64,000 nucleotides of DNA from Squalus acanthias (taxonomy: Eukaryota): assembly GCA_030390025.1 (NCBI GenBank), contig CM059432.1, positions 13,640,001 through 13,704,000 of the forward strand. The letters are read 5' to 3'. Positions within the stretch are counted from its first letter, which is position 1; every line of letters begins with the position of its first letter. A program made the position numbers and the translations under genes. Shown here one piece after another: positions 9,233 through 64,000 of this stretch. Below the pieces are notes generated by a model. The model was given only the letters and a program-made list of their open reading frames with translations. It had not been told where the DNA came from and searched no databases.

Positions 9233-9725
9233 GAACATACGAATTAGGAGCAGGAATAGGCCACTCGGCCCCTCGAGCCTGCTCCGCCATTCAATAAGAT
9301 CATGGCTGATCTGATTACTCCACATTCCCGCCTACCCCCGATAACCTTTCACCCCCTTACTTATCAAGAACCTATCTACCTCTTTTAGCTTTTTATTCCA
9401 GATTTATTTAATTAGCTGAATTTAAATTCCCCAGCTGCCGTGGTGGGATTTGAATTCATGTCTCCGGATCATTAGTCCAGGCCTCTGGATTACTAGCCCA
9501 GTGACATTACCACTATGCTACGGTACCCCTATCGAATGCGCTTCCACCGCCCTCTCAGGAAATGCATTGCAGATCATAACAAATCGGGAGTAAAAAAAAA
9601 AATTCTCATCTTCCCTGGCTTTTTTGGCAATTATCTTAAATCTGTGTCCTCTAGTTACCGACTCTCCTGCCAGTAAAAGCGGCTTCTCCCTATCTACTCT
9701 ATCAAAACCCATCATTTTGAATACA
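9233..9725 (-). mobile_element. CR1 3' fragments flanking a SINE head
   Basis: CR1 tail at 9233-9383; GESVTRGHRFKI at 9530-9725. Confidence 0.75.
9386..9528 (-). mobile_element. 5' part of the second SINE family
   Basis: Close reverse complement of 10094-10238. Confidence 0.8.
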
Positions 9726-10092: not shown

Positions 10093-10492
10093 TGGGCGTA
10101 CTGTAGCATAGCGGTTATGTTACTGGACTAGTAATCCAGAGGTCTGGACTAATGATCCGGAGACGTGAGTTCAAATCCCACCACGGCAGCTGGGGAATTT
10201 AAATTCAGCTAATTAAATAAATCTGGAATAAAAAGCTAGCATCAGTAATGGTGACCATGAAACTACCATCGTTAAAAACCCATCTGGTTCACTAATGTCC
10301 CTTTAGGGAAGGAAATCTGCTGCCCTTACCTTGTCTGGCCTATATGTGACCCACAGCAATATGGTTGACTTTTAACTGCCCTCTGAAATGGCCACTCAGT
10401 TGCATTTAAGGCAGCTCACCACCACCCTGGCGGGCAATTAGGGATGGGCGATAAATCCTGGCCTGGCCGGCGATGTCCACATCCCGTGAATA
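10093..10492 (+). mobile_element. Second tRNA-derived SINE family, full length
   Basis: tagcatagcggtta and gagttcaaatcc pol III boxes; 3' end shared with the third LINE family. Confidence 0.8.
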
Positions 10493-14685: not shown

Positions 14686-16372
14686 GAATCATAGAAATTT
14701 ATGGCACAGAAGGAGGCCATTCGGCCCATTGTGTCTGTGCCGGCTGAAAAAGAGCTATCCAATCTAATTCCACTTTCCAGCTCTTGGTCCGTAGCCCTGT
14801 AGGTTACGGCACTTCAAGTGCACATCCAAGTACTTTTTAAATGTGATGAGGGTCTCTGCGTCTACCACCCTTTCAGGCAGTGAGTTCCAGACCCCCACCA
14901 CCCTCTCAACTCCCCTCTAATCCTTCTACCAATTACTTTAAATCTATGGCCCCTAGTTACTGACCTCTCTGCTAAGGAAAATAGGTCCTTCCTATCCACT
15001 CTATCTAGGCCTCTCAATTTTATACACCTCAATTAAGTCTCCCCTCAGCCTCCTCTGTTCCAAAGAAAACAACCCCAGCCTATCCAATCTTTCCTCATAG
15101 CTAAAATTCCACAGTCCTGGCAACATCCTCGTAAATCTCCTCTGTACCATCTCTAGTGCAATTACATCTTTCCTGTAATGTGGTGACCAGAACTGCACGC
15201 AGTACTCTAGCTGTGGCCTAACTAGTTCAAGCAGTACTGCTCTTATATTCTATGCCTCGACTAATAAAGGAAAGTATCCCGTATGCCTTCTTAACCACCT
15301 TACCTACCTGTCCTGCTTCCTTCAGGGATCTGTGGACATGCACTCAAAGGTCACTCTGTTCCTCTAACTTCTAAGTATCCTACCATTTATTGTGTATTCC
15401 TTTGCCTGTTAGCCCTCCCCAATTGCATTACCTCACACTTCTCCGGATTGAATTCCATTTGCCACTTTTCTGCCCACCTGACCAGTCCATTGATATCTTC
15501 CTGCAATCTACAGTTTTCTTCCTCACTATCAACCACACGGCCAATTTTTGTATCATCTGCAAACTTCTTAATCATGCCTCCTACATTGAAGTCTAAATCA
15601 CTGACGTATACCACAAAAAGCAAGGGACCTAGTACAGGAAACTCTTTATTAACCGGCACCGACGGGACCGGCGTGGTGCCGGTTAATCAAAAAGTCCGGA
15701 TAACGGAGAGTTATATCTCCCAACGTACGAGAGCCCCGTACACATTGACATGCGCCTGCATTCGGAGCTCCGTCTCCCCGGGGACCGCCAGCTGACCATC
15801 TGTCGTGTCCGCTGCCTACCCGGGCTGCACATTCCCCTCCCAATCTACACGCTCCGATACAAGGCAAACGCCTCGGGGTTTTTTTTAAGTTAATCTTAAA
15901 CGAGAGATGAAGGAAAACCCCGGTTACCTACTCAAGAATTTTGCCGGTTAAGAGAGATTTCCGGATATTTGGGTGCCGGTTAATAAAGAGTTTCCTGTAC
16001 TTAGCCCTGCGGAACCCTACTGGAAACAGCTTTCCAGTCACAAAAACATCCGTCGACCATTACCCTTTGCTTCCTGCCACTGAGCCAATTTTGGATCCAA
16101 CTTGCCACTTTCCCTTGGATCCCATGGGTTTTTACTTTTCTGACCAGTCTGCTATGTGGGACCTTGTCAAAAGCCTTGCTAAAATCTATGTTGGCTACAT
16201 CAAACGCACTACCCTCATCAACCCTCCTTGTTACCGCCTCAAAAAATTCAGTCAAGTTACTCAGACACGACCTTCCCTTAACAAATCCATGCTGAGTGTC
16301 CTTGAGTAATCCATGCCTTTCTAAATGATGATTAATACTGTCCCTCAGAATTTGTTCCAACAATTTGCCCAT
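14686..16372 (-). mobile_element. CR1 LINE fragment interrupted by a MITE
   Basis: [34 protein letters not shown]; tail at 14686. Confidence 0.9.
15635..15997. mobile_element. Tc1/mariner (pogo/Tigger-like) MITE, subfamily A
   Basis: Perfect 26-bp TIR CAGGAAACTCTTTATTAACCGGCACC; TA duplication at 15633-34 and 15998-99; interrupts a CR1 RT. Confidence 0.92.
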
Positions 16373-17610: not shown

Positions 17611-17971
17611 AGCCCTACCCGTTTCTTTTTAATCATTGCCACTTTTTTTTGCATTTTCTATTAGGGTAAGATTTTGTTTTAAATTTTTCCTCCCTCCCTT
17701 TTGGGTGTGGAAGTTACAGTCACTGAAAGCGCCAGAGATTCTAAACTCTTAGCAAAAGTCAAGAAGTTTTTACCATATCTCCTTATTGCTAACGCCGATG
17801 CTTCTTTCTGAGAAGTGCATGTTGGCTAAAAGGAATCAGAATGGGCAATTTTCTCCGGACTGAATTCCTCTTAAAATTTATAATATCGACTTGCATTTTT
17901 TTTTTATATAGCGCCTTTCGCGACCACCGGACATCCGAAAGTGCTTTACAGCCAATGAAGTACTTTTTGAA

Positions 17972-18069
17972 CTAACAACAGAAAAAGCTGGAAAAACTCA
18001 GCAGGCCAGGCAGCATCCGTGGAGAGAGAAACAGAGTTAACTTTCAGGTCGAAGACCTTTCGTCAGAAC
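17972..18069 (-). mobile_element. 98-bp Penelope terminal mini-insertion carrying a hammerhead-like motif
   Basis: Matches the terminal repeat at 23260-23360; exact 14-bp TSD aagtactttttgaa at 17958-17971 and 18070-18083; interrupts a SINE. Confidence 0.85.
18034..18069 (-). ncRNA. Minimal type-I hammerhead ribozyme-like motif (one-base deletion relative to family)
   Basis: GUU-CUGACGA-A-AGGUC-UUC-GACCU-GAAA-GUU-AAC: both core boxes, a perfect 5-bp helix II and a GUU/AAC helix I. Sister copies read GAAACGUU. Confidence 0.65.
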
Positions 18070-18569
18070 AAGTACTTTTTGAAGTTGTTGTCATGTAGGA
18101 AACACGGCAGCCAATTTGCGCACAGCAAGCTCCCTCAAACAGCAATGTGACAACGACCAGATAATCTGGTTTTTTTAAGTGATGTTAATTGAGGGATAAA
18201 TATTGGCCAGGACACCAGGGACTAACTCCCCTGCTCTTCTTCGAAATAGTGCCATGGGATCTTTTACGTCCACCTGAGAGAGCAGACGGGGCCTCGGTTT
18301 AACATCTTATCCGAAAGACGGCACCTCCAACAGTGCAGCACTGCAGTGTCAGCCTAGATATTAAGTCTCTGGAGTAGGACCTGAACCACAACCTTCTGAC
18401 TCAAGGCAAGAGGTGCTACTACTGAGCCACGGCTGACACTCGTTAATTCTCCTATTTTATCACTATTTCTGATTGGACACCACATTGGAGTACTTAAGCA
18501 ACAATTCTGCTGCCTGGATAGGTCTAGCTTCCTACAATGCAACCAAGAAAGATTGTCCCACCTAGGGTT

Positions 18570-21789: not shown

Positions 21790-23225
21790 CCGGATGGCTT
21801 TCTGGCACCACGGTGGACATTGGTTGAGGGGTTCATGAGGGTCCCAGACATGCTGTCATTCTGAGAGATAATCCCTCACCCCCAAAAACTTCAGACCAGT
21901 GTCATAAGAAGCTCAACGACCTGACGAAGGCAGGCAAAGTAACATACCAGCCACTTTACCCTTTTTTTCCACAGACACCCTGAACACGAGCACTGCCTTC
22001 ACCCTCTAAAATTAAGAGCTGCAAGCTAACTCTTCGCATTGCACTGCAGTTAAGGAGGGCACTAACTTAGAGGATTGACTATAATGACGACGATGGCAAT
22101 GCCAAGGAGAAGGATGATGACGATAAGGGAGAGGATGTGAAGATCAAGCCAACCTGTGAGTTCCTGGATCTAGACGGTGGCTCATGTTTCTTTGTTACAA
22201 ACGCCTCCATCTCACGCCCTGCATCACTTGCTTTTTGACTCTGATGCACCAGCTCAGAAACGTTCCCCTGGGGGGAATTCGATAATGTTCGGGAGGATGT
22301 GGCCCAGGCGTTTCACAGAGCACACAGAAGCCAGAGGAATGTGGAATGGTTGAGGAGGTGTCATCTTCCCAGCGGAAGTCGAGGAGAAAGCTGCCCATGG
22401 TTTCAGAGCTGTGCAACTCAGAACTCATGGGTACTCTCCTGAAAAGAGGGAAGATCAAGGAACATCACAGCTGCGTAAATGCTTCTGGTTAGTCTCTGGA
22501 GATGTGCGGCAACTGACAGCTATGACTCGGAAGTCTACAATCTTCATTTGCAGCAAATTCAGGGAAGCTTTTGCTTCATTGCAGGCATCAATGGCGTGTT
22601 TGGCATCTTCACTAGAATCTGTAGCAGCCACCACCCCCCTCCCCCACCCCCCCCCAAACCTAAGAAGTGGCCAAGCACCAGTTGATGCCTTTCCTTCATG
22701 GAAGCACTGACTATTGCTCTGGTGGCAGTAGGTGGGGAGATCAGTCAGCACCCTGCAGACCGGTTTCAGACCCTGGGTATTGGGATGCATGCTCCTGTCT
22801 CTCAGGGCGTTCAGGATCTGATATTTGCAGGGGGACCAGGCATCCCACTGGTTAGTGGTGTCACAGATCCAGGGCGTAATGGAATGGTGATGGCAGGAAT
22901 CAACCTGCCTGAGGTTGGCATCTCTCAGGACAGCAGCACAGGCCAGGCATCCAGCCTTCCCCATCAGAGCATGTGCCAGTGGTACGAAGGAGATGGCACC
23001 AGGCTGCCCAAGCACAAGCTCCAGAGAAGCAGCCTGCAGTGTTTCATTGCCATAAATAAGCTGCCACGAGAGAGGGGGACTTCAGTTCCACGAGCACTCT
23101 GATGCACAGGAACAGCTTGTGATACTGGCCCTCAGGTTGTAATAGGAGAAGTTGGAATAGGGGAAAAAAAGCCAAATTTAAACAGCTAGGGAATCACAAT
23201 GTTGGGAAAGAGTAGGTTGGCTTAT
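21790..23225 (+). mobile_element. Degenerate Harbinger Myb/SANT-like gene remnant
   Basis: LVEGFMRVPDML, then TSDQCHKKLNDLTKAGK (21888-21938) followed by GT, then an acidic stretch; resembles the QCRKKFNDL motif of Harbinger Myb-like proteins. Confidence 0.5.
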
Positions 23226-23668
23226 ACAAAAGCAAAATACTGCAGATGCTGGCAATCTGAAATAAAAACAGAAAATGCTGGAAATACTCAGCAGGTCAGG
23301 CAGCATCTGTGGAGAGAGAGAGAAACAGAGTTAACGTTTCGGGTCCTTTCATCAGAACTGGAAAAAGTTAGAGATATAACAGGTTTTAGCAAGTTCAGAG
23401 GCAGGGAAAGGGGGGAGGGGAGGAAAGAACAAAAGGGAAGGGTCTGTGATAGGGTGGAAGGCAGGAGAGATTAAATGACAAAAGGGATGATGGTGTAAGG
23501 CAAAAGGAGATGGTAATGGGACAAGTAAAGAAACAAAAGATGGGTGTAGAAGAGATGTAAATGGGAACAGCAGAATCATCAACGGCTGCCGTCTGAAAAA
23601 AATGGGGGCAGAGGTTATGATCTGAAATTGTTGAACTCGTTTTGAGACCAGAAGGCTGTAAAGTGCCT

Positions 23669-24338
23669 ACAACAACAACAACAACTTGTATTGATATACC
23701 ACTTTTAACGTTGTAAAACATCCCAACTCACTTCACAGGAGTGTTATAAGACAAAAAAATTTGACACCAAACCACATAAGGAGAAATTAGGGCAGGTGAC
23801 CAAAAGCTTGGTCAAAGAGGTAGGTTTCAAGGAACGTCTTAAAGGAGGAAAGAGAGGTAGCGAGGCGGAGAGGTTTAGGCAGGGAATTCCAGAGCTCAGG
23901 GCCTAGGCCACAGAAGGCACGGCCACCAATAGTTGAGCGATTATAATCAGGGATGCTCAAGAGGGCAGAATTTGAGGAGCGCAGATATCTTGGGGGGGGT
24001 TATGGGGCTGAAGGAGATTTCAGAGATAGGGAGGTGTGAGGCCATGGAGGGATTTGAAAACAAGGATGAGAATTTTGAAATCAAGACTTTGCTTAACCGG
24101 GAGCCAATGTAGGTCAGCGAGCACAGGGGTGATGGGGGAACGGGACTTGGTGCGAGTTAGGACACGGGCAGCCGAGTTTTGGATCACCTCAAGTTTATGT
24201 AGGGTGGAATGTGGGAGGCCAGCCAGGAGTGCATTTGAATAGTCAAGACTAGAGGTAACAAAGGCATGGATGAGGGTTTCAGCAACGGATGAGTTGAGGC
24301 AAGGTCGGAGACGGGCGATGTTACAGAGGTGGAAATAA
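23669..24338 (-). mobile_element. L2-type LINE 3' fragment inserted in Penelope
   Basis: (caa)n tail at 23669; homologous to 18570-19262; Penelope sequence rejoins across a gccta duplication. Confidence 0.88.
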
Positions 24339-25534
24339 TACGGAGGTGGCCTAACCGAAAGATGAGGTGCTGTTCCTTGAGCTTACGTGAGCTTTGTTGG
24401 AACAGTGTAGGAGATCGAGGAAGGAGAGGTCAGAGTGGGAGTGGAGCGGAGAATTAAAGTGACAGGTGACAGTGACAGCTTGGGGTCACGCTTGCAGACT
24501 GAACGGAAGGTGTTCCGCAAAGTGGTCACCCAATCTGTGTTTGGTCTCCCCAATGTAGAGGAGACTGCATCGTGAGCAGCGAATACAGTATACTAAATTG
24601 AAAGAAGTACAAATAAATCGCTGTTTCACCTGGAAGGAGTGTTTGGGGTCCTGGACGGTGGGAAGGGAGGAGGTAAAAGGGCAGGTGTTGCATCTCCTGT
24701 GCTTGCACGGGAAGGTGAGGGGTGTTGAGGGAGATTGAGGAGTGGACCAGGGTGTCGGGGAGGGAGCGGTCCCTTCGGAATGCTGAAAGGGGAAGGGAGG
24801 GGAAGATGTGTTTGGTGGTGGGATCACGCTGGAGGTGGTGGAAATGGCGGAGGATGATCCATTGAATGTGGAGGCTGGTGGGGTGGAAGGTGAGGACAAG
24901 GGGAACCCTATCGTGGTTCTGGGATGGAGCGGAAGGGGGGAGAGCAGAAGTGTGGGAAATGGAACAGACTCGGTTGAGGGCCGTGTCAACCACGTTAGAG
25001 GGGAACCTTCGGTTGAGGAAAAAGGAAGACATATTGGAAGCACTGGTATGGAAGGTGGCAACGTCAGAACAGATGCAATGGAGAAACTGGGAGAATGGAA
25101 TAGAGTCCTTACAGAAAGCAGTGTGGGTGGAAGTGTAGTTAAACTAGCTGTGGGAGTCAGTGGGCTTATAGTGGATGTTGACCGATAGCCTATCCTCAGA
25201 AATAGAGAGAGAGAAGTCGAGGAAGGGAAGAGTCGGAGATGGACCATGTGAAGGTGGGGGAAGGGTGGAAATTGGAAGCAAAGTTGATGACATTTTCCAG
25301 TTCAGGGCGAGAGCAGGAAACGGCACTGATACAGTCATCAATGTACTGGAAAAAGAGGTGAGGGAGGGGACTTGAGTAGGACTGGAACAAAGAATGTTGT
25401 ACATCTCCCACGAAAAGGCAGGCATAGCTGGGACCCATGCGGGTTCCCACAGCAACACCTTTTATTTGGAGGAAATGAGTGGAGTCAAAGGAGAAGTTGT
25501 TCAATGTGAGAACAAGTTCAACCAGGCGGAGGAG

Positions 25535-25622
25535 TCCACGGATGCTGCCTGGCCTGCTGAGTATTTCCAGCATTTTCTGTTGTTATTTCAGATTTCCAGC
25601 ATCGGCAGTATTTTGCTATTGT
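25535..25622 (+). mobile_element. Penelope terminal fragment inserted in opposite orientation into the Penelope RT
   Basis: ccacggatgctgcctggcctgctgagtatttccagc...ttttgctattgt breaks the RT sequence, which resumes after it; no clear TSD. Confidence 0.75.
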
Positions 25623-25949
25623 ATGTGGTGGTGGATGGGAATTGGTTGAGCCTCTGTCCAAGGAAGAAGCGGAGCGCCCTCAAGCTGTCCTGGTGGGGGA
25701 TGGAGGTGTAGCGGGATTAGATGTCCATGGTGAAAAGGAGACGGTTAGGGCCAGGAAAACTGGAAACTGTTAGTGCGGAGGGTGTCGGTAGGTTGGCTTA
25801 TGTTCACTTTGAAGTTTGTTGTGTTAAAGGATAATGTGCATTTATGTTGTGTTTTGTTCATGGAGATTATAGTCATACAGGAATGGGTGCATTTATTATG
25901 TGTAGCCTTATTCAATTAGGTGATTAATATTGTCATGATCATGTCGTGG

Positions 25950-30906: not shown

Positions 30907-30980
30907 GTGAAACGTTAACTCTGTTTCTCTCTCCACAGATGCTGCCTGACCGGCTGAGTATTTCCAGCATTTTCTGTTCT
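30907..30980 (+). mobile_element. ~74-bp Penelope terminal mini-insertion
   Basis: gaaacgttaactctgtttctctctccacagatgctgcc...; flanked by taaagatttt at 30897-30906 and 30981-30990. Confidence 0.75.
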
Positions 30981-32009
30981 TAAAGATTTTTTTGGGGGTG
31001 CTTGATAGCACACGTAGAAATGGCAATCAATTCTCCTTGGATCAAATGCCATTTTGCTTTGCATACTCTGGCCCTACTCGAGGCCTGCATCTGCTCTCAG
31101 CAGACACAGATCCCAGTGGGCCTTTCAGGGGCACCTCAGGTGGAATTCCTGGGGAAACTCAGGAATACCCTGACATATCTCCAAACTGATGGGAGTGACA
31201 TAACAAAGGTGGGCAGATGTGCCTGTCCCTGGAGTGCAATTTTGTTGGTTTCAGTGAATGGAATGGAAAGCTGGCGGATCTGATTTTCACTCCAAATTAT
31301 GGTCCAAAAACCGCGCCCCTCCTGATTCAGAGAATTGCAGAGCTAATGTGTTATTCTTACACTACAACAACTTACATTTATATACACTAAAATGCAAGTG
31401 TCCATCCCTTTAATTAACAGAATTGCTGTTAAGTAAACAATGGATTCATATGGAGGTTAAAAGACAGCTGTTGGTAAATAAATTCCTGCAGATGCCAATT
31501 AAGAGACTGCAGATATCCTGAAATAAAAGCAGAAAATGCCGGAAACACTCAGCAGGTCTTAAATGGAAAATAGAAGGTGGTTAAATGGCTGAAAAGGTTA
31601 GATAGGTGGTTGAAGGAAAGTGGAATTAAGGGCAATGGGAACAGAGCAGGCACCTGGGATTAGGGCTACTGCTAGTGGAGGATAAACACCAACATGGACT
31701 GGTTGGGTCGAATGGCCTGTTACCATCTTGTAATTTCTATGCAAAACTTCTATATTTATTAGGTAGAGATTATGATTTACAGAGCAAAGTCCAACGCAAG
31801 AAAATATTTTTTGGCCCATCGAGCCTGTGAATGATTGTTCGATCATGGATGCTGGCTCCCCAAATTTAAGTGCAGTTAAAAATAGTGTTCTTCCTACTAA
31901 AAGAAATAGGAATTGGTTATCTCTAGCTCAAAAGCAGACAATGAAACAATTCCCATTCCACTTGCACGGCCATAGATACAACTCCATTTAATTAACATGA
32001 CCATTAAAA

Positions 32010-35639: not shown

Positions 35640-38635
35640 TGGGGTGGCAGTGCTGATTAAGGAAGACATTGTAGTGTTGGAAAGGGAGGATGTTCTTGAG
35701 GGGACAAGGACAGAATCCATTTGGTTCGAGCTGAAGAGCAAAAAGGGTATGATCACGCTATTGGGGGTATTCTATAGGCCTCCAAATAGTGAGAGGGAGG
35801 TAGAGGAGAAAATCTGCAGGGAAATCACAGAGATATGCAAGAGCCATAAAGTGGTGATATTGGGGGACTTTAATTACCCAAATATCGATTGGGATAATGC
35901 TAGGGTAAAGGGAAAGGAGGGGGAGGAATTTCTGAAATGTGTTCAAGAGAATTTCCTTGACCAGTATGTTCTTGACCCAACTAGGAAGGAGGCATTGCTG
36001 GAACTGGTGCTGGGGATTGAGGTGGGCCAGGTCGACCAAGTGTCTGTAGGAGAACACTTGGGTACGAGTGATCATCGTATCATAAGATTTAGATTAGCAA
36101 TGGAGAGGAGCAAGGAACAATCTAGAGTGGAACTTCTAAACTGAATAGGGCTAACTTCAATGGGATGTGAAAGGATCCAGCCAGAGTACAGGAAACTCTT
36201 TATTAACCGGCACTGACGGGACCGGCGTGGTGCCGGTTAATCAAAAAGTCCGGATAATGGAGAGTTATATCTCCCAACGTACGAGAGCCCCGTACACACT
36301 GACATGTGCCTGCATTCGGAGCTCCGTCTCCCCGGGGACCGCCAGCTGACCATCTGTCGTGTCCGCTGCCTACCCGGGCTGCACATTCCCCTCCCAATCC
36401 ACATGCTCCGATACAAAGCAAACGCCTCGGGGTTTTTTTTAAAGGAGAGATGAAGGAAAACCCCGGTTACCTACTCAAGAATTTTGCCGGTTAAGAGAGA
36501 TTTCCGGTTATTTGGGTGCCGGTTAAAAGAGAGTTTCCTGTATAATGGAACCAAAGACTGACAGGAAAAACTGTAATGGAACAACGGGTGATCTTTAAGG
36601 AGGAGATGTTCCAAGTACAGGCTAGGTACATTCCAACAAGAGGGAAGGGTAAGGGAACCAAAGCAAGGGCTCCTTGGATGACGAGGGAGATAGAGAAGAT
36701 GATGAAACAAAAAAAGAGGGTGTATGATGAATGTCAGGTGAATTCTTCAAGGAGAACCAGACCAAATACAGTAAGTTGAGAGGGGAAGTGAAGATGAAAA
36801 TAAGATTGGCAAAGAGAGAATATGAGAGTAGAATGGCGGTTAACATAAAAGGGAACCCAAAAATCTTCTACTGGCATGTAAACAGTAAGCGGGTAGTAAA
36901 AGGCGGGGTGGGGCCTATTAGAGACAAAGAAGGTGATAGATATATGCTTAGAGGCACAGGGCAAGGCTCGAATACTCAATGAGTAATTTGTATCGGTGTT
37001 TACTAAGGAGGTGGATGCTGACAAAATATCAGAAGAAGTGAAAAAGGTAGAAGCAACGGAAGGGGTGAAAATTGATAGACAGGATGTACTAGAAAAGCTG
37101 GGTATGCTTAGAGCGGACAAGTTGCCTGGTCCAGATGACTTGCATCCCAGGTTGCTAAGGGAATTGGGGGAGGAGATAGTAGAAGGGCTTGCCATAATTT
37201 TCCAGTCTTCCCTAGATGCGGGGGAAGTGCCTGAGGATTGGAAAGTGGCAAATGTGACACCATTGTTCAAGAAAGGGTGCAAGGACAATCCTAGTAACTA
37301 CAGGCCGGTCAGTTTAACATCAGTGGTGGGTAAGTTTTTTAGAAACAATAATCAAGGAAAAAATTAACGGGCATTTGGAGAGGTTTAAGCTAATTAAGGA
37401 GTGCCAACACGGGTTTGTAAAAGGAAGATCGTGTTTGACTAATCTAATTGAATTTTTTCATGAGGTACCAGAGAGGATTGATGAAGGGAATGCAATGGAT
37501 GTTTGACAAAGTACCACATAGAAGGCTGGTTAACAAAATTGAGGCTCATGGAATAGGTGGGTCAGTGGCAGCTTGGATAAGGAATTGGCTTAAGGACAGA
37601 AAACAGTGAGTTGTGGTAAATGGCTGATTTTCAGAATGGAGGATGGTAGACAGTGGTGTTCCCCAAGGGTCAGTGCTGGGGCCACTGCTTTTTTTTGGAT
37701 ATACCTGGATATTGGAATACAGAGTAGAATTTCTAAATTTGCCGATGACACCAAACTTGGGGGTGTGGCAAACAGTGAGGATGATATCAATCGACTGAAA
37801 CAGGACATAGAAAGGCTAGCAGAATGGGCAGATGGAATTTAATAAAGTGTGAGGTGATGCATTTTGGCAGAAGGAACAGGGAGAGGCAATATACACTTAA
37901 TGGCACAGTTTTAAAGAGTGTGCAGGGACAGAGGGACCTGGGAGTTAATGTGCATAGGTCCCTGAAGGTGGCAGGACCTATTGAGAGAGTAGTTAACAAA
38001 GCATATGGGATCTTGGGCTTTATAAATAGAGGTATTGAGTACAAAAGTAGAGAAGTTATGCTGAACCTTTATAAAGCAATGGTTAGGCCACAACTGGAGT
38101 ATTGTGTCCAGTTCTGGTCACCACACTTTAGGAGGGATGTGAAGGCCCTTGAGAGGGTGCAGAGGAGATTTACCAGAATGGTTCCAGGGATGGGGATCTT
38201 AGCTACAAGGACAGGTTGGAGAAGCTGGATTTGTTTTCATTAGAGCAAAGGAAGTTGAGGGGTGATTTGATAGAGGTGTACAAGATTATGACGGGTTTGG
38301 ATAGGCTAGACAGGGAAAGGCTGTTCCCACTAGTTGATGGTACAAGGACTAGGGGACACAGATTTAAGGTTTTGGGCAAGAGATACAGGGGAATGAGAGG
38401 AAAAACTTTTTTACACAGCGAGTGGTGATGACCTGGAATTCGCTGCCGACGGAAGTGGTGGAAGCGGAGACACTCAATGTTTTCAAGGGGAGACTGGATA
38501 GGCACTTGAGGGAAATAAACTTGCAGGGCTTCGGGGATAGAGCGGGGGAATGGGACTGACTGGATTGCTCTACAGAGAGCCGGCACGGACTCGATGGGCC
38601 AAATGGCCTCCTTCTGTGCCGTTATGACTATGACT
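35640..38635 (+). mobile_element. CR1 LINE ORF2 (APE endonuclease + RT), degenerate, antisense in the last ANKRD12 intron
   Basis: ESIW...GVFYRPP...ILGDFNYP...SDH (APE); NYRPVSLTS and KFADDTKL (RT); CR1 3' tail. Confidence 0.92.
36189..36540. mobile_element. Tc1/mariner (pogo/Tigger-like) MITE, subfamily A
   Basis: Near-identical to 15635-15997; TA at 36187-88 and 36541-42; interrupts a CR1 ORF2. Confidence 0.92.
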
Positions 38636-40496: not shown

Positions 40497-40726
40497 CTAA
40501 AAAACACAATATAACCATAGTGATCAATATTAATGCAAGTGTTGTAACTTAAAACCATTTTATCAATTCATGCTGGTAAAATTCACCAGAAATAATAACA
40601 CTTTTCTGTTACTCTTCTCTCAACTGATAAATCATATACCATAAGAATCTGGTCTTACTAGATTGAACACTCACTGCAAATACCAGAAACTGGACATGAA
40701 TAAAGGAGCAGCATATATTCCATATA

Positions 40727-41145
40727 CAGGAAACTTTCGTTTATCCGGCATCGACGGGACCGGCGTGGTGCCGGTTTATCGAAAGTACCGGATAACAGAG
40801 AGTTATATCTACCGAGGCTATTTTTAACAAAGAGACTCCAAGCAGCACGGGAGAATCTACTCATGCTACTGCAATGTTTCGGACTTGCGACAGCGCCAGG
40901 AGGCCGAGTAGTGGCACTTTTGAAAAGTACCCCTATTGACTAAATCGGCGTTCGCGGACTCAGACTCGGGATCGGCAACATTGCCGGTTATTTGAGAGGA
41001 TTTTTCGGAGCACTCTGCGTTCGCGGAGACTCGACTGCGACTCGGCAACATTGCCGGTTATTTGAGAGGAGTTTTCAGAGGATGATTTTTGCCGGTTAAG
41101 CGAGAATTCCGGATATTTGGGTGCCGGATAAACGAAAGTTTCCTG
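40727..41145. mobile_element. Tc1/mariner (pogo/Tigger-like) MITE, subfamily B
   Basis: Perfect 24-bp TIR CAGGAAACTTTCGTTTATCCGGCA; TA at 40725-26 and 41146-47; shares subterminal sequence with subfamily A but has a different interior. Confidence 0.9.
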
Positions 41146-42309
41146 TACTGTATATATAATTCTAAACATCAAAGGGAAATATCTGTTTCTACATAAGCAT
41201 TCTCCTGCTCGCCCATTGTAACAGTATTTTCTTTCTTAAAACTGCAGTATACATCCTGGGACCCAAGTTGTATAAAAGTCCACGTGTGACCTCATTAAGT
41301 TCCACTCCAGTGGCACCATTTAATGGGAAGGCTGGGCTGTTAACCGAATTCACCACTCAATGCCACTAAATATCTCAGTTCACGTGTGGGATTAGCATGT
41401 GACATTTTATTAGAATACATTATACTTACCCTTTAAAGCGAAATAGTTAAAAATTCCGTTTGCAGACTTCATAGTCACACTATCTAGATACCAGTGATAA
41501 AACACTACATTGTACCTATTTTATGCCTTTCGAGATATATGTCTCAAAGGGTTAAACATTTTTTTGGTTAATTTCAAACTATAAAGCAATTATCTAAATT
41601 TGAAGTTATTAGAGTGAATGTTTATAATGTCAGCATCCTGACCTGCTAAACGCTGATCTCAGGGAAAATTAACCATACCCATCATTAATGAATTATAACA
41701 GCATGTTCACTTTCTAGTCTTATACCTCATTTACTAATGCCTCCTGTAGCACTAAGTAAAAGAGTTACAGCCACACACTGAAATTAATACATACATATAC
41801 ACACAGAAAATTGTATTAGGAAGGACTAACTAGAATTAGTCTTTGCTTTTAGTAAAGCTGTGTGGCCCGAAATCAAGGCAAAATTTTACGTTCTCTGAAG
41901 TGGTTTGGCTATGAAAATGCAGGTCAGAATGTTATCACTACCTATTATCACCTTTTAGAAATGCGACTCTCAGATCAACTGAAAGCCCTACACCGTAAAA
42001 AAAAAACCAACACCTCTGCAATGACATGGAATTTACAGCACACAAACAGGCCATTCGGCCCAGCTGGTCTATGTCGGTGTATACGCTCCACACACAGGCC
42101 TCCTCCCACCCCTCTTCATCTAACCCTATCAGCATATCCTTCGATTCCTTTCTCCCTCATGTACTTATCTAGCTTCCCCTGAAATGCATTTATGCTATTC
42201 ACCTCAACTAGCAAGTTCCATATTCTAACCACTCTCTGGATAAAGAAGTTTCTCCTGAATTCTTATTGGGTTGATTAGTGACTAGCTTGTATTTATGACC
42301 TCTAATTTT

Positions 42310-54080: not shown

Positions 54081-55048
54081 CAGGCCAGCACTGCTACCTG
54101 AGTCAGAAGGTTGTGGCTGCAAACCCCACTGCTCGAAGAAATGTAGGACCTGATCTGTGAAGTGCTTTAGGACACAGGAGGTGAAAGGTGCTATATAAAT
54201 GCAAGTTTTCCTTTTTCTATTAAAAAGCATCCTTCTTCATTTAAGGAGCCTGCTTCAGAAGGCCAGGTCCGAGGACTTGCCTATGCCCAGTTTTTATGGG
54301 CAAGGAATGTGCTGCAGGTCCAGCACAGGGTGGGACACTTTCTAATGTATTTCAATTATGCAAATTAGTAGCTCTGCCTCATTATTTGCTCAAAAATCAC
54401 CTGTCGGGAAATTGGACGCCCCACAAATTGACCAGGTATCTAATTTTCTGACCCACACCTGCTGCCCGCGAGACCCTATGTTGCTGGCGGGGCCTTGCAA
54501 ATCAGTGCTACTGTATTCCAGCATGAGTCAAAACCCTCATCAGGAGAAAAGCAGCAGTGAAGAATTAATGACAATAATGTACTGTAGGTGTGACATTACA
54601 CTATTATCTTAAGATTCTATGTAGTTGAAAAGATTGAAACATAAGTTCCCTGTATATTGCCCCCACCCCAATGACAAAAATGGCTTTGGAAGGAACCCTG
54701 CAATGTAAAGACAGTGCCATCAGTGGGAGCCATTTAGCAATGTTCTTGGACAACATCTTGGGCCTGGCTACAGGTAGACTATGGTTTGAGTGCAGACAAG
54801 TTGATTGGGTATTAAAGAAAACTGACTCCATTCCGTTATGGAATTCCTTCCAATGGAAGCAGCTAAATGTAAAACATCCATTAAAATCCAACATTAAGGA
54901 CTAAAGGGTTCACGTTGTGTACTCTACTTAGGCACTTCTTGAATAAATAATTCAAGCGAGATTGTTAGTCAACTTGCAAACTAAATTTACTGCTTTGAGT
55001 CACTTAAAATAATGAGCTCTATAAATTCTTTTAAGGGAGAACACTTAC

Positions 55049-58000
55049 AGTTGGTATGCAAAGCTTGCTCAAAGGGTTTCCATCCAGCAGGTATGATCCA
55101 GTGAATGTAACAAATTCATCGTAAAACTGTGGTGCTTGAGGAGTGACACTACATAGCACTTTACGCTTCTCTTCTATTTTCTTTCTAATGTGGAGATATT
55201 CATAGTAAGGGTTTGCCTTTTCTGAATGATAAGGTTGAATCTCTTCTAATTTTAAAGAATCTACAATGGCTGCCAGTGACTGCTGAGTCTTTTCCTTAGC
55301 CTGCTGCAATGTGGATTTCACTTGCGCAGGATGTGGAACTCGTGACATCTTTCGTTTATGTGGATGGTGCACCTGACCTTCTTCCTCCTCTGTAAACTTA
55401 GACTTGCTTTTCACAGGTGTGGAAGATTCTGTATCTTTGTCAGACACCGGTGCACAGTTGACAGCAGACTGTTTGCTTTGATTGGCCAATAGGTTTGCTC
55501 TGTTACGAGTAATCCTCTGAGGAATATCTTGTTCTGTTCGGTCAGCTTCCATTTGCTCATCTGACTCGTCTTTTGTTGACTCAGTGGACTGCCTTCGTTC
55601 ATCTGGCGCTGCTTCATACATCATTACAGCATCTTGACCAGCAGTCGTAGAAAGTTGAGAAACTTCCATCTCCAATGAGGAATCTTGGTCCTGAGCTTTA
55701 CTTTCCAAGGACTGAGGTTGGTCACTTACTGAATTTGTGTGTACATGTTCAGTGGAAGGTATTGCTTCAGGCAGTTCTTCTCTTGGCTCAGATGGCATTT
55801 CATCAACTGAGGCTACTGGCATTTTGTCTAATACTGAGCTCTCCTGATTACATGTTGGCTCATGACTGGTTGAAGTTATATTTTTTGCACTTTCTTCTGT
55901 CTTTTCTTGAGATTCAGTTAATATACTCTGCACAGTCCTCGTTTGGTCCACAAGGCTTTCGTTCATATTATTGCTATCCGATAATGCTGTGGATGATGGA
56001 GAGAAACTCTCTTCCAAGCCTTGCATTTCATCTGGTTTGCAATAATTTGACACATCTTCCACAGTCTTCTGACTTGGAAGGTCAGCATTTATGTCATGAG
56101 GAGGATATTTAGCATCCTTCTCATCAGCCATTCCTGCACATTCTGCGTGTGGTTTGCATGAACTTGAAGTCTGATCTGTATCTTGCAAAGGTTGAGTTTG
56201 TGGTAAATCTTCTTGAGGTGTACACTTTGGCCAAAAGAGCACTCGAGGTGCACTGTCACTGTCTAATGATGACCGCGTACAAGAAGAATTGGAAGAATGT
56301 GTAGGTGAAAAATAAGATGGTGCTTCTAGATTTGCCACTTGGGAAGACTCAGTGCAAGGTCTCTGTGGAGACTTAGATACCAGTTCCGATGTCAACTGGT
56401 CTGAACATCCCCACTCTTGTGAAACATGCTGTAATGGGCTGAAAATGTTTTTCTCACAAGCTGTCGAAGATGAATATCCATCATTATTACTGTGTGAAGG
56501 GACATCAAGCCTATCAGAAGTCATTTCCAATGGTTTATCTGGCTGAATATCACCAATCAAACAGTTTAGTTGTGGCTGTACAACAGGCATCTGCTGAGAA
56601 GTATTTTGCATTATTACGCTGTTGGGATTTGCATCCTGTGATAAATAATTAGTGCTACTTGGCACAATGACAGCTGGCGGCGTGGAAACAGAGAGCTGTA
56701 AACAGGTAGTACTATTAAATGTGGCCTCTTCAGTGCCACTGTCTGGAAGTGGTTCTGGTCGAGGAGAAGTACAGGCTTGGGGTTGTACTGCTGGTGAAAA
56801 ACTATATTGTTTTTCACTTGAAAGCAGATTACCTTCAAGTTGCTTGTGGGACGGTTTATCATGGTCATTTGCAACGGCTGGTATACTGCATCTCCGAATA
56901 TCACCTACTAACCGACATTCATTCTCGTATCTAGCATTGTCAGCAGAGACTGATCGCAGATAAGATCCTGAAAGTTTACTGGAATATGGCGATTTAAGTC
57001 GATCTGGCAAATCAGCTAAAACATCAGAGTCTCGGTCATATACAGCAGGTGATTTGGCACTGGACAGAAATACTGATTGAGAAAAGGAAGACTGAGACTC
57101 AGAACCCTCAATAGTGAAATCTGAATCATAGTCTGTTAAAGGCCGTGGCGTTGCTACAGCTGAAGTCTGACAGGAATCTTCTGAACTTGCAACAGAAATC
57201 ATTGATATAGATCTTGAGGTAAGCCCCACCCGATCACGTTCTTGTCTGGGAGATGCAGTTAAATTACTTTCACAACTTATGAAAGGTCTTGGTGTATCTG
57301 GCAAATTCTGTTTTGCATCAGTGGACAGTGATCTCACATTGTTAACATCTTTCAGCTGCTTGTCTTTAGAGTGTGCCTCTGATGGATCTGAACTTTTCGA
57401 TCTAGTAAGCTCTTTGCTTGCTGTTGAACTCTTCAGTTTTTCTCGTTCTTTTATTTTTGTGAGCTCAATGCCAGATCGATGCCTCTGTCGTTCCTTCTCT
57501 TTCAGCTTTATCTTCTCTTTGTGTTTTTTGTGCCATTGCTCAATCTCTAAATCCTTTAGACTTAGCATTCTTTCAAAACTGGTCTGCATTAAGTCATCGT
57601 TTACTAGTCTCTTCTCTTTTGGCCGCACATCCTTTGCAGCACTAGAGTCTTTAGACTTCAGTTTGTCAGCTTCTGCTTCTTTAAGCTTTGCTTTAACAGT
57701 GACATTTACTGGTACCCTCTCTTTTTGTCTGTCTTTTTCCTTCCTTTCTTTTTCTTTTGTTTCAGGAGTTTTAAGAAAGTCCTCCTTGATTTTATCCTTT
57801 GAGGAAAATAATTTATCATGAGATGCTTTGCTGCTCTCAACAGTGCTGCGTTTCTTCTCCTCTGGTAAGTGCTTGGAGTTTGACACAGGGTCACCCTCTC
57901 TTTCCCTGGATTTCTCTTTCTTCTTCTCTTTTTCTAGATCTCTGTCTTTTTCTTTGACTTTAACTTTGTCAGCTTTACTAGGAGTGACGTCTTGAGAGTC

Positions 58001-59973
58001 TTTTTCAGATAATTTAGCCTTCTTCTCGGTAGCATGCTTTTCTTTTTCCACTTTGTCCTTCATCCCACTGGAATGACGTTCCCTTTCACCTTTTTCTCTC
58101 TCATGTTTCTTCTCCAGTTTTTCTTTACTCTTTTCTTTCTCCTCAGGTTTTTTGACTGAGAATATATTCTTCAATTTATCATTTTCCCGGTGGATCTTTT
58201 CTGCAGTGGAATACAAGTTACTAGATCGATCTTTTTCTTTTGTTCTCTCTCCAGTGTCTTGTAATTTACTAAGTGTTTTTTCCTGCGATTTTTCATGGAG
58301 CTCGGATTTCTCTTTCTCCAACCTATTTTCGTGTTTTATTTTCTTCTCTCTATCAGAATATTTTTTCTCTAACTTTTCCAAGTCCCTCTCTTTAGTCGGG
58401 GACTTTTTTTCACTTTTCTCTTTGTTTTCCTTCTTTTCTCTATCTGGAGTATCAGATTTGTCTTTATCTGTACCTTTTTCTTTCTCAAATAACTCTGTAT
58501 GCTCTTTCTTCACAAAGACACTTGAGTAAATTGAGTCGTCTTTGTCCGCAAGCACAATTTCCTTTCTTTCTTCCAGATTTGTAAGTTTAATTTCTTTTTC
58601 TTCTTTAGAGTGCTTTTCCTTTTTATTCTTTTTCGACTTTTCCTTCTCTCTGTCGTCTTTGGAAGATTTTTCTTCCTTACAATACTTCTCCTTTGTTGTT
58701 TTCTCTTCTTTAACTGGAGTTTTATCTTTCAATGACTTTTCTGATAGGACTAAATCAGAGGTTTCATCTTTGAGTGTTTCATTAGTGTCATCGTTTTTGA
58801 AGAAGTTCTCTTTCCAGTATTCTCTATCAAACTCAGGATATACTTTTTCACTCTCTTTTTGTCTGTGTTTTCCCTTTTCATTTTCATGTTCTTTTTTAAT
58901 TTTGTTTTTCTCTTTATCTTTATGCTTTAGTTTATGCTTTTTTATAACTTTGCCATCCTTGTCAGTCTTTTTAAACACCTCTTCCATGTTATCAAACATG
59001 CCCGTCTCCTCCTCTTTGCTTCTCTGTCCAGACTTTTCGCCAAATTCTACATGCAGATCCTTTTTGCGATGTTTAGTCTTTGTTTTGTACTTAAAAGACT
59101 TATTGCTGGAACTCTCAGAGGTGTAGTCAGAGTCTGTCAGGTGATCAAATCGCACAACTTCAGATTGAAGAGACATGTCTGAGGCTCCTGATGATGGGCC
59201 AGTTTTGGCATTTTCCTGTTTAAGTGGTTTTGCTCGTTTTTCATTTAACCCACATGTATGCTTAGGTGACTTGGCAGTTGAAAGGTGGAATTGATGACCT
59301 GAAGAATCATCTTTCATACATAAAGACTTTCTGAATGAATCCTCCTCTCTTGTACGGTCTAATGAGTCCAAACCAGAGCAAGTGGAGAAAAGCATCAATT
59401 TAGCATTTTCCTTCTCTTCTTTCTCCTGCTTGAACTCCTGGTTCTCTTTATTTTTACTTTGTTTCTTCATTTTTTTCTTCCCTTTTCCCTTCTCTTTCTG
59501 TTCAACGGTAACCAGGTTTTCTTTCTTAGTCCTTACATCAGATTTACTGCTATCTGGAACAACATCCAGAGAGCTTGTTGAACAAGTTTTTTTCTCTTGA
59601 TGTGGCTCGTCATCTGAGCTTTCAGAGCTAGATGAAACAAGAACTCTTGGCGATTTCTGCTTTTTAATTTTGAATGGTTTCTGCAATTCTAGCTTTGGTG
59701 GTGTTAAATAGCTGCTGTTCTCTTTCACAATGCTCTTTTTACCATCCTTTCTTCGAATCCTTTTCTGATCTACAAGCTTGCCCATTTCTTCCTCCTCTTC
59801 ATCATCTTCCTCATCATCATCCTTGAACTCGTATTCATCCAGAGCAGATGACGCAACTGATTTGCAGGGTGTCAATTGTTGGTTAGTATCAGTTTTTAAT
59901 TCTTTTTCTACTTCAGAATCATCCACATTGTCATCCACACTAGACGGATTCACAGAAGGTAACTCTTCAGATT
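55049..59973 (-). CDS. ANKRD12: ANKRD12 giant coding exon (4,925 bp; Lys/Glu-rich then Ser/Pro-rich)
   Basis: Lies within the 1651-aa ORF; contains SVNPSSVDDN, KEKRLVNDDLMQTSFERMLSLKDLEIEQWHKKHKEKIK and NPYYEYLHIRKKIEEKRK...LLDGNPLSKLCIPT; TTTCTAG acceptor before 59973, GTAAGT donor after 55049; phase 1 in, phase 0 out. Confidence 0.96.
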
Positions 59974-60889
59974 CTAGAAAGTACAAAAAAAATGAAGTTT
60001 ACAGTAGGAAATGGCACATTTTTCAAGTCCTATTGCAAAAACTTTCTAATGGTACTCACGGCATAACGACATATGAAACAATGTTTGTAAGATCACAGTA
60101 AGCCCCAGTCAGACATATTCCTATTAAGTGCATTTTTACAAATGCCAAATGTTCCAATATTCATGTCTGTAAAGGATTATTTCTATTGTGTAATCAGTGT
60201 AAAAACCATAATCATTCAACAAACCCAATATAACCCAAAGATACATTATCAGGTACGTGTGCGTATAAAGAAAGAGAACAGGAGTTGCAATATTGGAGAC
60301 CATACCACTAGAATGTGAGAACTTAAAAATAGTGAAGTGGTATACAAAGGGAATCCCTTTGGATTGACTATTAACAAGGGATCAGTCACACTACTGGAAG
60401 TGTACTATAGAGCAGTGGAGAGGAAATTGTGGATTAACTTTGTAGACAAATTAGCAATTGAGATAATGTAGATTTTAATTATTCAAAATTATATGGAAAA
60501 TGTTTGTAGCGAGATAGGGGAGTTTTTTTTATTAGCAGTGTGTTTAGGACTCTTTCTCAGTCAATATGTTGAAACTCCAGTGAGAAAAGAAGCACTATAT
60601 TATCTGGTTCTGCATAATGATTACCTTAAAGGAGAGAAACACTTGGGAAGCAGTGATCATAAAATAATTAGGTTCAGTGTAAGAAGAGGAAAAAAATTAG
60701 GACAAGGGTAGCTACAGGAAGAAAGCAAATTAAGTGAGATTAAAAAGTGATCTTTTCTGGACTGAATGGAAGGAAAATTGGTAAATAGAACCACAGATTA
60801 GCAATGGTAAATATTTAAATAGGAGATGGAGAGTGTATATATTATGTACAGCCTGGTAATGAAAAAAAGAGTATGTTAAAGAATGGTTT

Positions 60890-61636: not shown

Positions 61637-62442
61637 ATAAGATCAGATCAAATTAGAAACTAAAAATAGCATGTATTACGTTCATGGCGGATAGTAGAGG
61701 AATAAATATATAAAATATGTATGGGAAAGCTACAAAAAAGGATTAAGAAGGCCGAGACTAAAAGGAACTTTCTTGGACTGGAAAGATGTGGTGTTCTGCT
61801 TTTATTTACCATGTACATAAATGATCTGCTCATAGGAATAGAGGGAACAAAATCAAAATTGCTTGATGATACTGAACTAGAGTATGGTAAACTGATGAAG
61901 ATTCTGAAAGGAGGACACAGAGGCTAGTAGGATGAGGAGAGAGATGGCAGATGTCATTTAATGTAGAAAAAATGACATTTTTTGGAAACAAGAATAAGGA
62001 AAAGAGATACACCTTAAATAGTAAGATTTTAAATGGAGTAGAGAAGCAGAGGGACCTTGATGTCAGATACATGGATATTAAAGGTTGCAGAGCAAGCAGA
62101 TAAGATCACGCAAAAGATAAATGGAATCCATATAACTACAAAAGTTGACAACTCCAAAGTGTCTCTGAATATAAGCCGATAGCATGTGAAAAGCAATTAC
62201 ACTAAAAGTGCAGTGGGACATGGCTTGTAGATATAACCAACATTCCTTGACTTGTATTGGAGGAATAAACAGAAGAGACTGAACCAGCAGGAGGGGGGCA
62301 AAAGATCCCAGAAAAGCAGGGGGAGGCGGAAGAAACAGATGATGGAAGGTAGCATTGGTTACAAAATTCTTGTCCATAGTATGAGAATTTACAGTTCTGT
62401 AAATTACAACTTCTCTCATAACTTTGGGACTACTGAAATAAT

Positions 62443-62992
62443 ACAAAAGCAAAATACTGTGGCTGCTGTAAATCTGAAATAAAAACAGAAAATGCTGGAA
62501 ATACTTTAATTCTCCACTCCACTCCCACTCTGACCTCTGTCCTTGGCCTCTTGCACTGTTCCAACAAAGCTCAACACAAGCTCGAGGAACAGCACCTCAT
62601 CTTTCGATTCGGCACTTTACTGCCTTCTGGACTCAACATCGAGTTCAACAATTTCAGATGGCAGCTGTTGATGATTCTGTCATTCTCATTTACACCTCTT
62701 CTAGATCCATCTTTTGTTTCTTTACCTGTCCCATTACCACCTCCTTTTGCTTTGTACAATCATACCTTTTGTCAGTTAATCACTCCTGCCTTCCCCCCAT
62801 CACAGACCTTCCCTTTTGTTCTTTTCCACTCCTCCCACCCTTTCCCTGCCCCATGCACTTGCTTAAAATCTGTTACATCTCTAACTTTTTCCATTTCTGA
62901 TAAAATGTCATCGACCTGAAACCTTAACTCTGTTTCTCTCTCCACAGATGCTGCCTGACCTGTTAGTATTTCCAGCATGTTCTGTTTTTATT
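62443..62992. mobile_element. Penelope 3' fragment with internal inversion
   Basis: 62443-62505 is the terminal end in minus orientation; 62506-62992 is the adjacent segment in plus orientation (KLEEQHLIFRFGTLLPSGLNIEF); TSD actactgaaataat(a) at 62429-62442 and 62993-63006. Confidence 0.85.
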
Positions 62993-63813: not shown

Positions 63814-63909
63814 TTTCTCTCTCCACGGATGCTGCCTGGCCTGCTGAGTTTTTCCAGCGTTTTCTGTTGTTATTTCAGATTTCCAGCATCCGCAGTATTT
63901 TGCTATCGT
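63814..63909 (+). mobile_element. Penelope terminal fragment
   Basis: Near-identical to 25535-25622. Confidence 0.75.
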
Positions 63910-64000
63910 AATGTGAAGTGCTTCATCCTTTCACGTTATGTTGATTGTCAGGAGATAGTGTGCTTTTTTCCACTTCTTTGCACACTGTGCCCAAGTATTA

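What the first reader, a model, noticed from the sequence alone, without database searches (positions are those of the whole stretch)
17958..18083. 98-bp mobile unit that is little more than a hammerhead motif plus a Penelope end, with a 14-bp TSD
Seen: 17972-18069 interrupts a SINE and is flanked by an exact 14-bp duplication (aagtactttttgaa). On the minus strand it begins exactly at GUU-CUGACGA-A-AGGUC-UUC-GACCU-GAAA-GUU-AAC. Established: Penelope-like elements carry minimal type-I hammerheads in their terminal repeats, and non-autonomous hammerhead retroelements (retrozymes) exist. Inference: this is either a distinct non-coding mini-retroelement mobilised by the Penelope RT/GIY-YIG, or a truncation product whose end is set by the ribozyme fold. 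This copy lacks the C of GAAAC and may be inactive.
Basis: partly seen in the sequence, partly recalled or inferred. Interest (0 to 1): 0.72.

Follow-up and report, generated by a model that had tools for sequence, protein, structure and literature searches.

The report
Truncated Penelope-like element end with hammerhead
This 98-base insertion is real, but it is the last piece of a common jumping gene of cartilaginous fishes (a Penelope-like retroelement), whose end normally carries a small hammerhead ribozyme motif, here broken; it is most likely not a separate mobile element.

Summary
Observation confirmed: 17972-18069 interrupts a tRNA-headed SINE between exact 14-bp duplications. The 98 bp are one colinear piece of the terminal repeat (pLTR) of a Penelope-like element (PLE), not a hammerhead joined to a Penelope end. 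The window holds 8 pieces of this end. All 8 have different 5' ends, and one runs on into RT and GIY-YIG coding sequence with a Neptune/Nematis-type zinc linker. The 3' end is the tail-less one of two known PLE start points for reverse transcription (PMC11167929). The 5' end lies 31 nt upstream of the hammerhead cut site, so cleavage did not set it. This copy lacks C15.2 and its helix III dimer is not stable. It fails the retrozyme tests. Open point: whether 5' ends pile up at the front of the hammerhead genome-wide. Only 1 of 8 does here, and my read test was inconclusive. The scan noted such clustering earlier in other shark-like genomes (unchecked). If real, run-off at an RNA start is likelier than a fold effect. 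Ordinary kind; low interest.

The parts
17958..17971 (.). Target-site duplication, left copy (14 bp, 79% AT)
   Evidence: single copy in 4 of 4 SINE paralogues aligned
18070..18083 (.). Target-site duplication, right copy
   Evidence: identical to the left copy
17972..18069 (-). 5'-truncated, tail-less 3' piece of a PLE pLTR (98 bp)
   Evidence: colinear with 23263-23358 and 62895-62990; 58/59 identical to 63814-63872
18036..18069 (-). Minimal type I hammerhead motif: helix I 5' strand 18069-18067, core from C3 at 18066, 5-bp helix II, GAAA from 18045, C15.2 missing, cut site between 18039 and 18038, helix I 3' strand 18038-18036
   Evidence: compared with the published consensus in the supplement of PMC4209133
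17972..17973 (-). 3' end at the tail-less start point of reverse transcription; after one unmatched base, the first four bases of the duplication match the start of the family's tail
   Evidence: genome-wide loose-end cluster at the equivalent 23257-23263 in 4 of 4 runs laid
17903..18438 (-). Host SINE with tRNA-like head (A and B boxes); SacSINE1/Deu-type by recall, not compared by sequence
   Evidence: family described in PMC5499810 (passages)
23226..25787 (-). Longer 5'-truncated copy of the same PLE kind: RT motifs, CX4CxxC linker, GIY-YIG, 3' UTR, degenerate hammerhead, 37-nt tail, 14-bp duplication; interrupted by another repeat at 23670-24337 and by a short PLE piece at 25535-25627
62444..62992 (.). 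Fold-back insertion of the same family: inverted tailed piece plus direct 490-bp tail-less piece, 15-bp duplication
63814..63910 (+). Young-subfamily short piece with tail, starts at +39 (downstream of the cut site)
25535..25627 (+). Young-subfamily short piece with tail, starts at +47
30908..30982 (+). Older-subfamily tail-less piece, starts at +23, 10-bp duplication
31500..31556 (-). Decayed short piece, starts at +63

Best explanation
The insert is a dead, 5'-truncated copy of the end of an endonuclease-bearing Penelope-like element of Neptune/Nematis type. Steps: the element's GIY-YIG nicked an AT-rich spot in an old SINE (inferred); its RT began inside the pLTR RNA at the upstream of the two start points, so no tail was copied (the two end classes are shown, the enzymology is taken from the anole element); cDNA was primed from the plus-strand end at 17971 and stopped after 98 nt; a second nick 14 nt away gave the duplication (duplication shown). 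The hammerhead is there only because every pLTR of this family has one 90-100 nt from this start point. It did not cut the template, and in this copy the loss of C15.2 removes the palindromic helix III needed for the dimeric active form. The stop at the front of the hammerhead is one of many truncation points, by chance or with a mild bias.
For: 8 pieces in 7 insertion units with 8 different 5' ends: -1/+1, +23, +39, +47, +63, +71, and two that run on for about 0.5 and 2.5 kb. The long copy codes RT motifs and GIY-YIG, its best protein relatives are from cartilaginous fishes, and more distant 900-aa relatives carry RT plus GIY-YIG. The CX2-5CxxC linker is in the window copy and in 22 of 24 relatives with a YIG motif. 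Duplications of 10-15 bp flank 4 of 7 units. Loose ends cluster at the tail-less end in 4 of 4 runs and at the tail end in 3 of 4, among the rows shown. In vitro, the anole PLE starts RT at two internal sites that bound the tail and does not need hammerhead cleavage (PMC11167929). Single min-HHRs from truncated PLEs were reported as the usual case (PMC4209133). Helix III self-dimer: +2.0 kcal/mol here against -4.1 for the family form.
Against: The three youngest pieces (96-98% alike) are all short; the two long copies belong to an older subfamily, so a coding parent of this exact subfamily is not shown in the window. No piece ends between 100 and about 480 nt from the 3' end, which would fit a wall at the hammerhead (n is small). 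3 of 7 units show no duplication of 6 bp or more. The Pfam GIY-YIG match of the window copy is below threshold (E 0.042). No protein was found that ties the 98-bp module to the start of the PLE ORF (5 hits, none with a PLE domain).
Confidence: 0.65

Rival explanations
1. Run-off product of the autonomous element. RT starts about 100-135 nt from the 5' end of the element's own RNA and runs off that end, and the short cDNA integrates without jumping to the far end of the RNA (like a strong-stop DNA). The RNA end would be a transcription start or an exon boundary at the front of helix I, so copies of about 98 nt (no tail) and about 135 nt (tail) form a peak without being a separate element.
For: In the long copy the bases at the boundary (23361-23355, minus) match the initiator consensus YYANWYY (consensus recalled), and also form a pyrimidine tract plus AG with no other AG for 86 nt upstream. 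In D. virilis the intron ends at the 5' end of helix I (PMC4209133). Anole PLE RT starts internally near the ORF start, and 5'-shortened templates give shorter products (PMC11167929). 2 of 5 shark gene models that contain the module's peptide begin with it. The lead came from earlier scan notes, which are unchecked and are not support.
Against: Only 1 of 8 pieces here starts there, and chance gives 27% for 6 short pieces at +-2 nt. In D. virilis transcription starts 46 nt before a 75-nt intron, so well upstream of helix I (PMC2377424). I found no GT resembling a splice donor in the 260 nt upstream.
Confidence: 0.25
2. A distinct non-autonomous mini-element: a young subfamily made only of hammerhead plus RT-binding region (plus tail), transcribed from its own short copies and moved in trans by PLE protein.
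For: The 3 young pieces share diagnostic bases and none extends upstream of the hammerhead. These bases are a minority variant in the window-like DNA run (4% and 7% of depth) and commoner in another run (39% and 29%) (table 3). Non-autonomous PLE derivatives exist (PMC8557442).
Against: No sequence of its own, no promoter inside the 98 bp that I could name, and 3 different 5' ends among the 3 young pieces.
Confidence: 0.07
3. A retrozyme monomer, or an end set by the ribozyme itself (cleavage, or RT stalling at the fold).
For: The motif sits at the very 5' end and is the only exact-core hit in the window.
Against: A cleaved RNA would begin at 18038, not 18069. RT meets the fold from its 3' side and here copied through all of it (inference). 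The unit is single, not tandem, and is 98 nt against 150-450 bp for animal retrozymes (PMC7229834). The RNA folds no better than shuffles (z 0.46) and the predicted structure pairs the core away.
Confidence: 0.03

Closest known systems
Solo minimal hammerheads (min-HHR) of truncated metazoan PLEs (Cervera and De la Pena 2014, PMC4209133; read: abstract, results, discussion, one supplement part)
   Same: CUGANGAH core, extra base before helix II, no loop III, palindromic 15.2/16.2 in the family, 3-4 bp helix I, U-rich 5' flank, dispersed single copies, location in the pLTR
   Different: Closing pair of helix II is A-U or G-U, not G-C (published exceptions exist). This copy lacks position 15.2. 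No shark example turned up in the one supplement file searched (file 1 not searchable).
Poseidon PLE of Anolis carolinensis, PAc (Frangieh et al. 2024, PMC11167929; read: main text and methods; Fig. S2 is an image and could not be read)
   Same: Hammerhead followed about 90-130 nt later by two alternative 3' ends that bound a 30-40 nt tail; AT-rich targets
   Different: The linked ORF here has the CX2-5CxxC linker that Penelope/Poseidon lack, so Neptune/Nematis type. Junctions here show 1-4 nt of matching bases, whereas PAc started without homology in vitro. That the ORF starts in the hammerhead is shown for PAc, not here.
Neptune-type EN+ PLEs (Craig et al. 2021, PMC8557442, passages; Arkhipova et al. 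2013, PMC3846280, passages)
   Same: Heavy 5' truncation, inverted partner copy, optional tail, 8-10 bp duplications, solo pLTRs, zinc-finger linker before GIY-YIG
   Different: Duplications here are 10-15 bp; clade not tested by a tree; no full-length partial tandem in the window
Animal non-LTR retrozymes (PMC7229834, passages; bioRxiv 10.64898/2026.07.22.740005, abstract, introduction, part of the methods, passages)
   Same: Non-coding, type I hammerhead, thought to be moved by PLE proteins, derived from pLTRs
   Different: Retrozymes are tandem repeats with canonical type I motifs, released by cleavage as 170-400 nt RNAs; this is a single 98-bp piece whose ends ignore the cut site

Membership tests
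EN+ Penelope-like element (Neptune/Nematis type) | RT plus C-terminal GIY-YIG with two cysteines between GIY and YIG, linked to this end | tested here: met
   On the long copy 23226-25787, not on the 98 bp itself; Pfam GIY-YIG only E 0.042; the copy has stops and frameshifts
EN+ Penelope-like element (Neptune/Nematis type) | CX2-5CxxC linker upstream of GIY-YIG | tested here: met
   window copy, and 22 of 24 relatives with a YIG motif among 71 proteins held
EN+ Penelope-like element (Neptune/Nematis type) | Optional 30-40 bp tail, two 3' end classes | tested here: met
   37-nt tail in 23226-23262; tail present in 4 of 8 pieces, absent in 3, partial in 1; loose-end clusters
EN+ Penelope-like element (Neptune/Nematis type) | 5' truncation, inverted partner copy, variable target duplication | tested here: met
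   duplications of 14, 14, 15 and 10 bp in 4 of 7 units; fold-back unit at 62444-62992
EN+ Penelope-like element (Neptune/Nematis type) | Full-length partial tandem with two pLTRs; clade by RT phylogeny | not tested
   no full-length copy in the window, no genome held, no tree built
Minimal type I hammerhead (min-HHR) | CUGANGAH ... GAAA core with helix II and a helix I of at least 3 bp | tested here: met
   (5-bp helix II, 3-bp helix I); position 7 varies U/C across copies (31-58% C)
Minimal type I hammerhead (min-HHR) | Palindromic 15.2/16.2 that allows the dimeric helix III | tested here: not met
   this copy lacks 15.2, self-dimer +2.0 kcal/mol; met in copies 30908 and 23263, -4.1
Minimal type I hammerhead (min-HHR) | G10.1-C11.1 pair | tested here: not met
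   A-U here; A-U also appears in published rows
Minimal type I hammerhead (min-HHR) | Self-cleavage as a dimer or with PLE protein | not testable with these tools
   needs in vitro transcription
Non-LTR retrozyme | Tandem repeats with a hammerhead in each unit | tested here: not met
   single unit between duplications; other copies lie kilobases away
Non-LTR retrozyme | Unit delimited by the cut site, 150-450 bp | tested here: not met
   98 bp; 5' end 31 nt upstream of the cut site
Non-LTR retrozyme | Abundant linear and circular monomer RNA | not testable with these tools
   only contigs were on offer, no raw RNA reads
Distinct non-autonomous PLE derivative | Many copies with one fixed 5' end | tested here: inconclusive
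   1 of 8 pieces in the window; the genome-wide test was spoiled by indels in the reference copy

The most novel reading that the evidence does not exclude
Short PLE insertions in sharks include a defined class of run-off cDNAs. RT starts about 100-135 nt from the 5' end of the element's RNA and runs off at a transcription start (or exon boundary) that coincides with the first strand of hammerhead helix I. The normal cycle would need a strand jump here, and failed jumps litter the genome with 98- and 135-nt copies. The genome would then map the 5' end of PLE RNA and show a strong-stop-like intermediate in PLE retrotransposition, with the hammerhead at the very 5' end of the RNA rather than cutting it out.
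Probability: 0.25. Interest if true: 0.55.

Novelty: new member of a known kind. Interest (0 to 1): 0.2.

Why it matters
As a single insertion it matters little: solo minimal hammerheads from truncated PLEs have been described since 2014. It shows that a very abundant cartilaginous-fish PLE family (tens of thousands of contigs laid per DNA run) follows the two-start-point, tail/no-tail rule worked out in vitro for an anole element of another clade. If a genome-wide peak of 5' ends at helix I were confirmed, it would bear on an open question: how PLEs build their pseudo-LTRs and what their hammerheads are for.

Tried and rejected
Substitute: contigs of 4 of the 21 runs listed were laid on 23195-23660. 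For 5' ends this failed. The reference copy has 4 extra bases at 23312 and lacks 6 in helix II, so contigs were clipped at 23315-23319 and 23345. No loose-end row at 23357-23359 is among the 24 rows shown, but 1778 rows were not shown. The row at 23254 is probably a clip at a private substitution (23253) and I did not count it. Depth just inside versus just upstream of the hammerhead (23341 vs 23370) was 1.77M vs 1.78M in X5 and 0.83M vs 0.24M in X9; the tool states that contig depth cannot rank parts, so I use it neither way. No RNA holder is on record; the two guessed RNA runs say nothing on expression. Covariation in helix II could not be counted: only 2 complete helices in the window, one decayed. 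Loose-end consensuses show a constant stem with varied loops and one U-A swap at 15.2/16.2, but at agreement of about 0.5 they may be mixtures. DNA pattern scans found no eukaryotic copies: 0 in viral contigs, 0 in genome contigs, 0 then 8 in metagenomes, and the 8 look like chance microbial matches of 21-31 nt. Protein-led scans gave one weak short match each, not followed. Rfam: no hammerhead. An alternative register that restores helix III in this copy (cut after 18035) was considered by eye and rejected because helix I then cannot pair. My first label 'Poseidon' was dropped after the linker test. The idea that the module encodes the start of the PLE protein found no PLE protein. The atlas did not name the large host ORF. 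Paper searches returned no paper on shark PLE hammerheads or on 5' ends clustering at helix I; the library lacks most subscription journals, and one supplement file and one figure could not be read.

Full report
Observation. The two 14-mers at 17958-17971 and 18070-18083 are identical and enclose 98 bp. A control on 2000 random 98-bp intervals never gave more than 10 bp. Four paralogues of the host SINE carry the site once and lack the insert. The host has a tRNA-like head with A and B boxes on the minus strand; I call it SacSINE1/Deu-like from recall and from the description in PMC5499810 (passages), without a sequence comparison. The hammerhead-like start on the minus strand is as written. 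It is the only exact-core hit of my descriptor in the window, against 0 in 20 shuffles. Rfam does not match it.

What the 98 bp are. BLAST of the insert on the window gave 7 further pieces at E below 4e-4, making 8 pieces in 7 insertion units. One is the end of a 2.56-kb unit, 23226-25787 on the minus strand, with its own 14-bp duplication. It codes broken RT motifs and a GIY-YIG domain. The best relatives of its RT piece are proteins of sharks and rays, and more distant ones of about 900 aa carry RT and GIY-YIG. A CX2-5CxxC motif precedes GIY-YIG in the window copy and in 22 of 24 relatives with a YIG motif; PMC8557442 gives this as the mark of Neptune and Nematis, absent in Penelope/Poseidon. 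The insert is colinear with the last part of this unit, from 23358 to 23263, with the hammerhead in the same sense as the ORF. So it is not a hammerhead plus a Penelope end; the hammerhead is part of the end. The insert belongs to a young subfamily with two other pieces (58/59 and 49/51 identical); the long copies are of an older subfamily.

The 3' end. Pieces end either at the point where this insert ends or 37 nt further on. Laying contigs of 4 runs on 23195-23660 put 47,660, 86,113, 4,927 and 3,607 contigs on the stretch. Among the 24 loose-end rows shown, long heterogeneous flanks cluster at 23257-23263 in 4 of 4 runs and at 23224-23226 in 3 of 4. This is the optional 30-40 bp PLE tail (PMC8557442; PMC3846280). 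For the anole element the tail was shown to be the stretch between two internal start sites of RT, downstream of the hammerhead, and hammerhead cleavage was not needed for insertion (PMC11167929). The insert is a tail-less copy. After one unmatched base, the first four bases of the duplication match the start of the tail, which may reflect priming by short homology (inference; the anole enzyme did not need it in vitro).

The 5' end. Counting from the first T after the G at 18069, pieces start at -1/+1 (this one), +23, +39, +47, +63 and +71, and two run on for about 0.5 and 2.5 kb. The cut site is between 18039 and 18038, 31 nt inside, so cleavage did not make this end. With 6 short pieces, one landing within 2 nt of a named point has a chance of 27%. 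The genome-wide test was inconclusive because the reference copy has indels that clipped the contigs. Earlier notes of this scan on other shark-like genomes report clustering of 5' ends at the front of the hammerhead (e1-7858714, e1-7858200). They are unchecked, and my window does not reproduce it (1 of 8). If such a peak exists, the sequence offers two causes other than the fold. In the long copy the boundary matches an initiator consensus (recalled) and also a pyrimidine tract plus AG with an 86-nt AG-free zone; in D. virilis the intron ends at this same place (PMC4209133). Against this, D. virilis transcription starts about 120 nt upstream (PMC2377424), and I saw no donor-like GT upstream.

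The ribozyme. The family form fits the published min-HHR consensus except for an A-U or G-U closing pair. The 3 other window copies that cover position 15.2 have the C, as do 3 loose-end consensuses at 23319. This copy lacks it, and its helix III self-dimer is not stable (+2.0 against -4.1 kcal/mol). Its helix I is cut to 3 bp, and the whole insert folds no better than shuffles (z 0.46). Published min-HHRs do not cleave as monomers and cleave weakly as dimers. This copy is therefore very probably inactive (inference; not assayed).

Comparison and verdict. It works like, and by every feature I could test belongs to, the 5'-truncated pLTR pieces of EN+ PLEs, whose solo min-HHRs were described in 2014. 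It fails the retrozyme tests: not tandem, 98 bp against 150-450, ends not at the cut site. Seven paper searches returned nothing on shark PLE hammerheads or on 5' ends clustering at helix I, within a library that lacks most subscription journals. A note from the same genome reports an intact young PLE with hammerheads in both pLTRs (e1-7857333); I could not check it or tell whether it is this subfamily. Novelty: new member of a known kind. Interest 0.2. The most novel reading not excluded is a run-off, strong-stop-like class of short insertions (probability 0.25, interest 0.55 if true).

Noticed in passing
window 30920-30945 (+) and equivalents; proteins P0067-P0071: In older copies the module holds a textbook splice acceptor (branch-like TTAAC beside the hammerhead cut site, pyrimidine tract, CAG) directly before an ATG; the young subfamily has CGG there. 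Five shark gene models contain the peptide read from this frame, two with unrelated sequence abutting that Met and two starting with the module, which suggests recurrent exonisation of PLE ends (no DNA seen).
   Followed up: partly
window 23226-25787: Nested insertions: the long PLE copy is interrupted by a 670-bp repeat (23670-24337, L2-like by recall) and by a young PLE end (25535-25627) in the opposite orientation with no duplication found.
   Followed up: partly
window 62429-63007: Fold-back PLE unit with a 15-bp duplication; its direct arm lacks about 30 nt of 3' UTR between two short direct repeats.
   Followed up: partly
window 18084-18095: The host SINE lacks about 8 nt two bases beyond the right duplication, relative to 4 of 4 paralogues; may or may not date from the insertion.
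   Followed up: no
window 15631-16001, 36187-36542, 40725-41147: Three elements of 350-420 bp with related 26-30 bp terminal inverted repeats, 93-100% complementary; MITE-like.
   Followed up: no
window 9386-9529 and 10095-10238: 144-nt inverted pair, 94% complementary, one arm called tRNA-Thr by ARAGORN; probably two tRNA-derived SINE heads.
   Followed up: no
window 55031-59998 (-): 1655-codon open frame, a large host exon; resembles ANKRD11/ANKRD12 by recall only (searches did not name it).
   Followed up: partly
table 7, run X5, place 23317: The loose-end consensus shows a variant hammerhead with U-A in place of C-G at 15.2/16.2 and a different helix II, a possible second subfamily with a compensatory change (agreement 0.52).
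   Followed up: no
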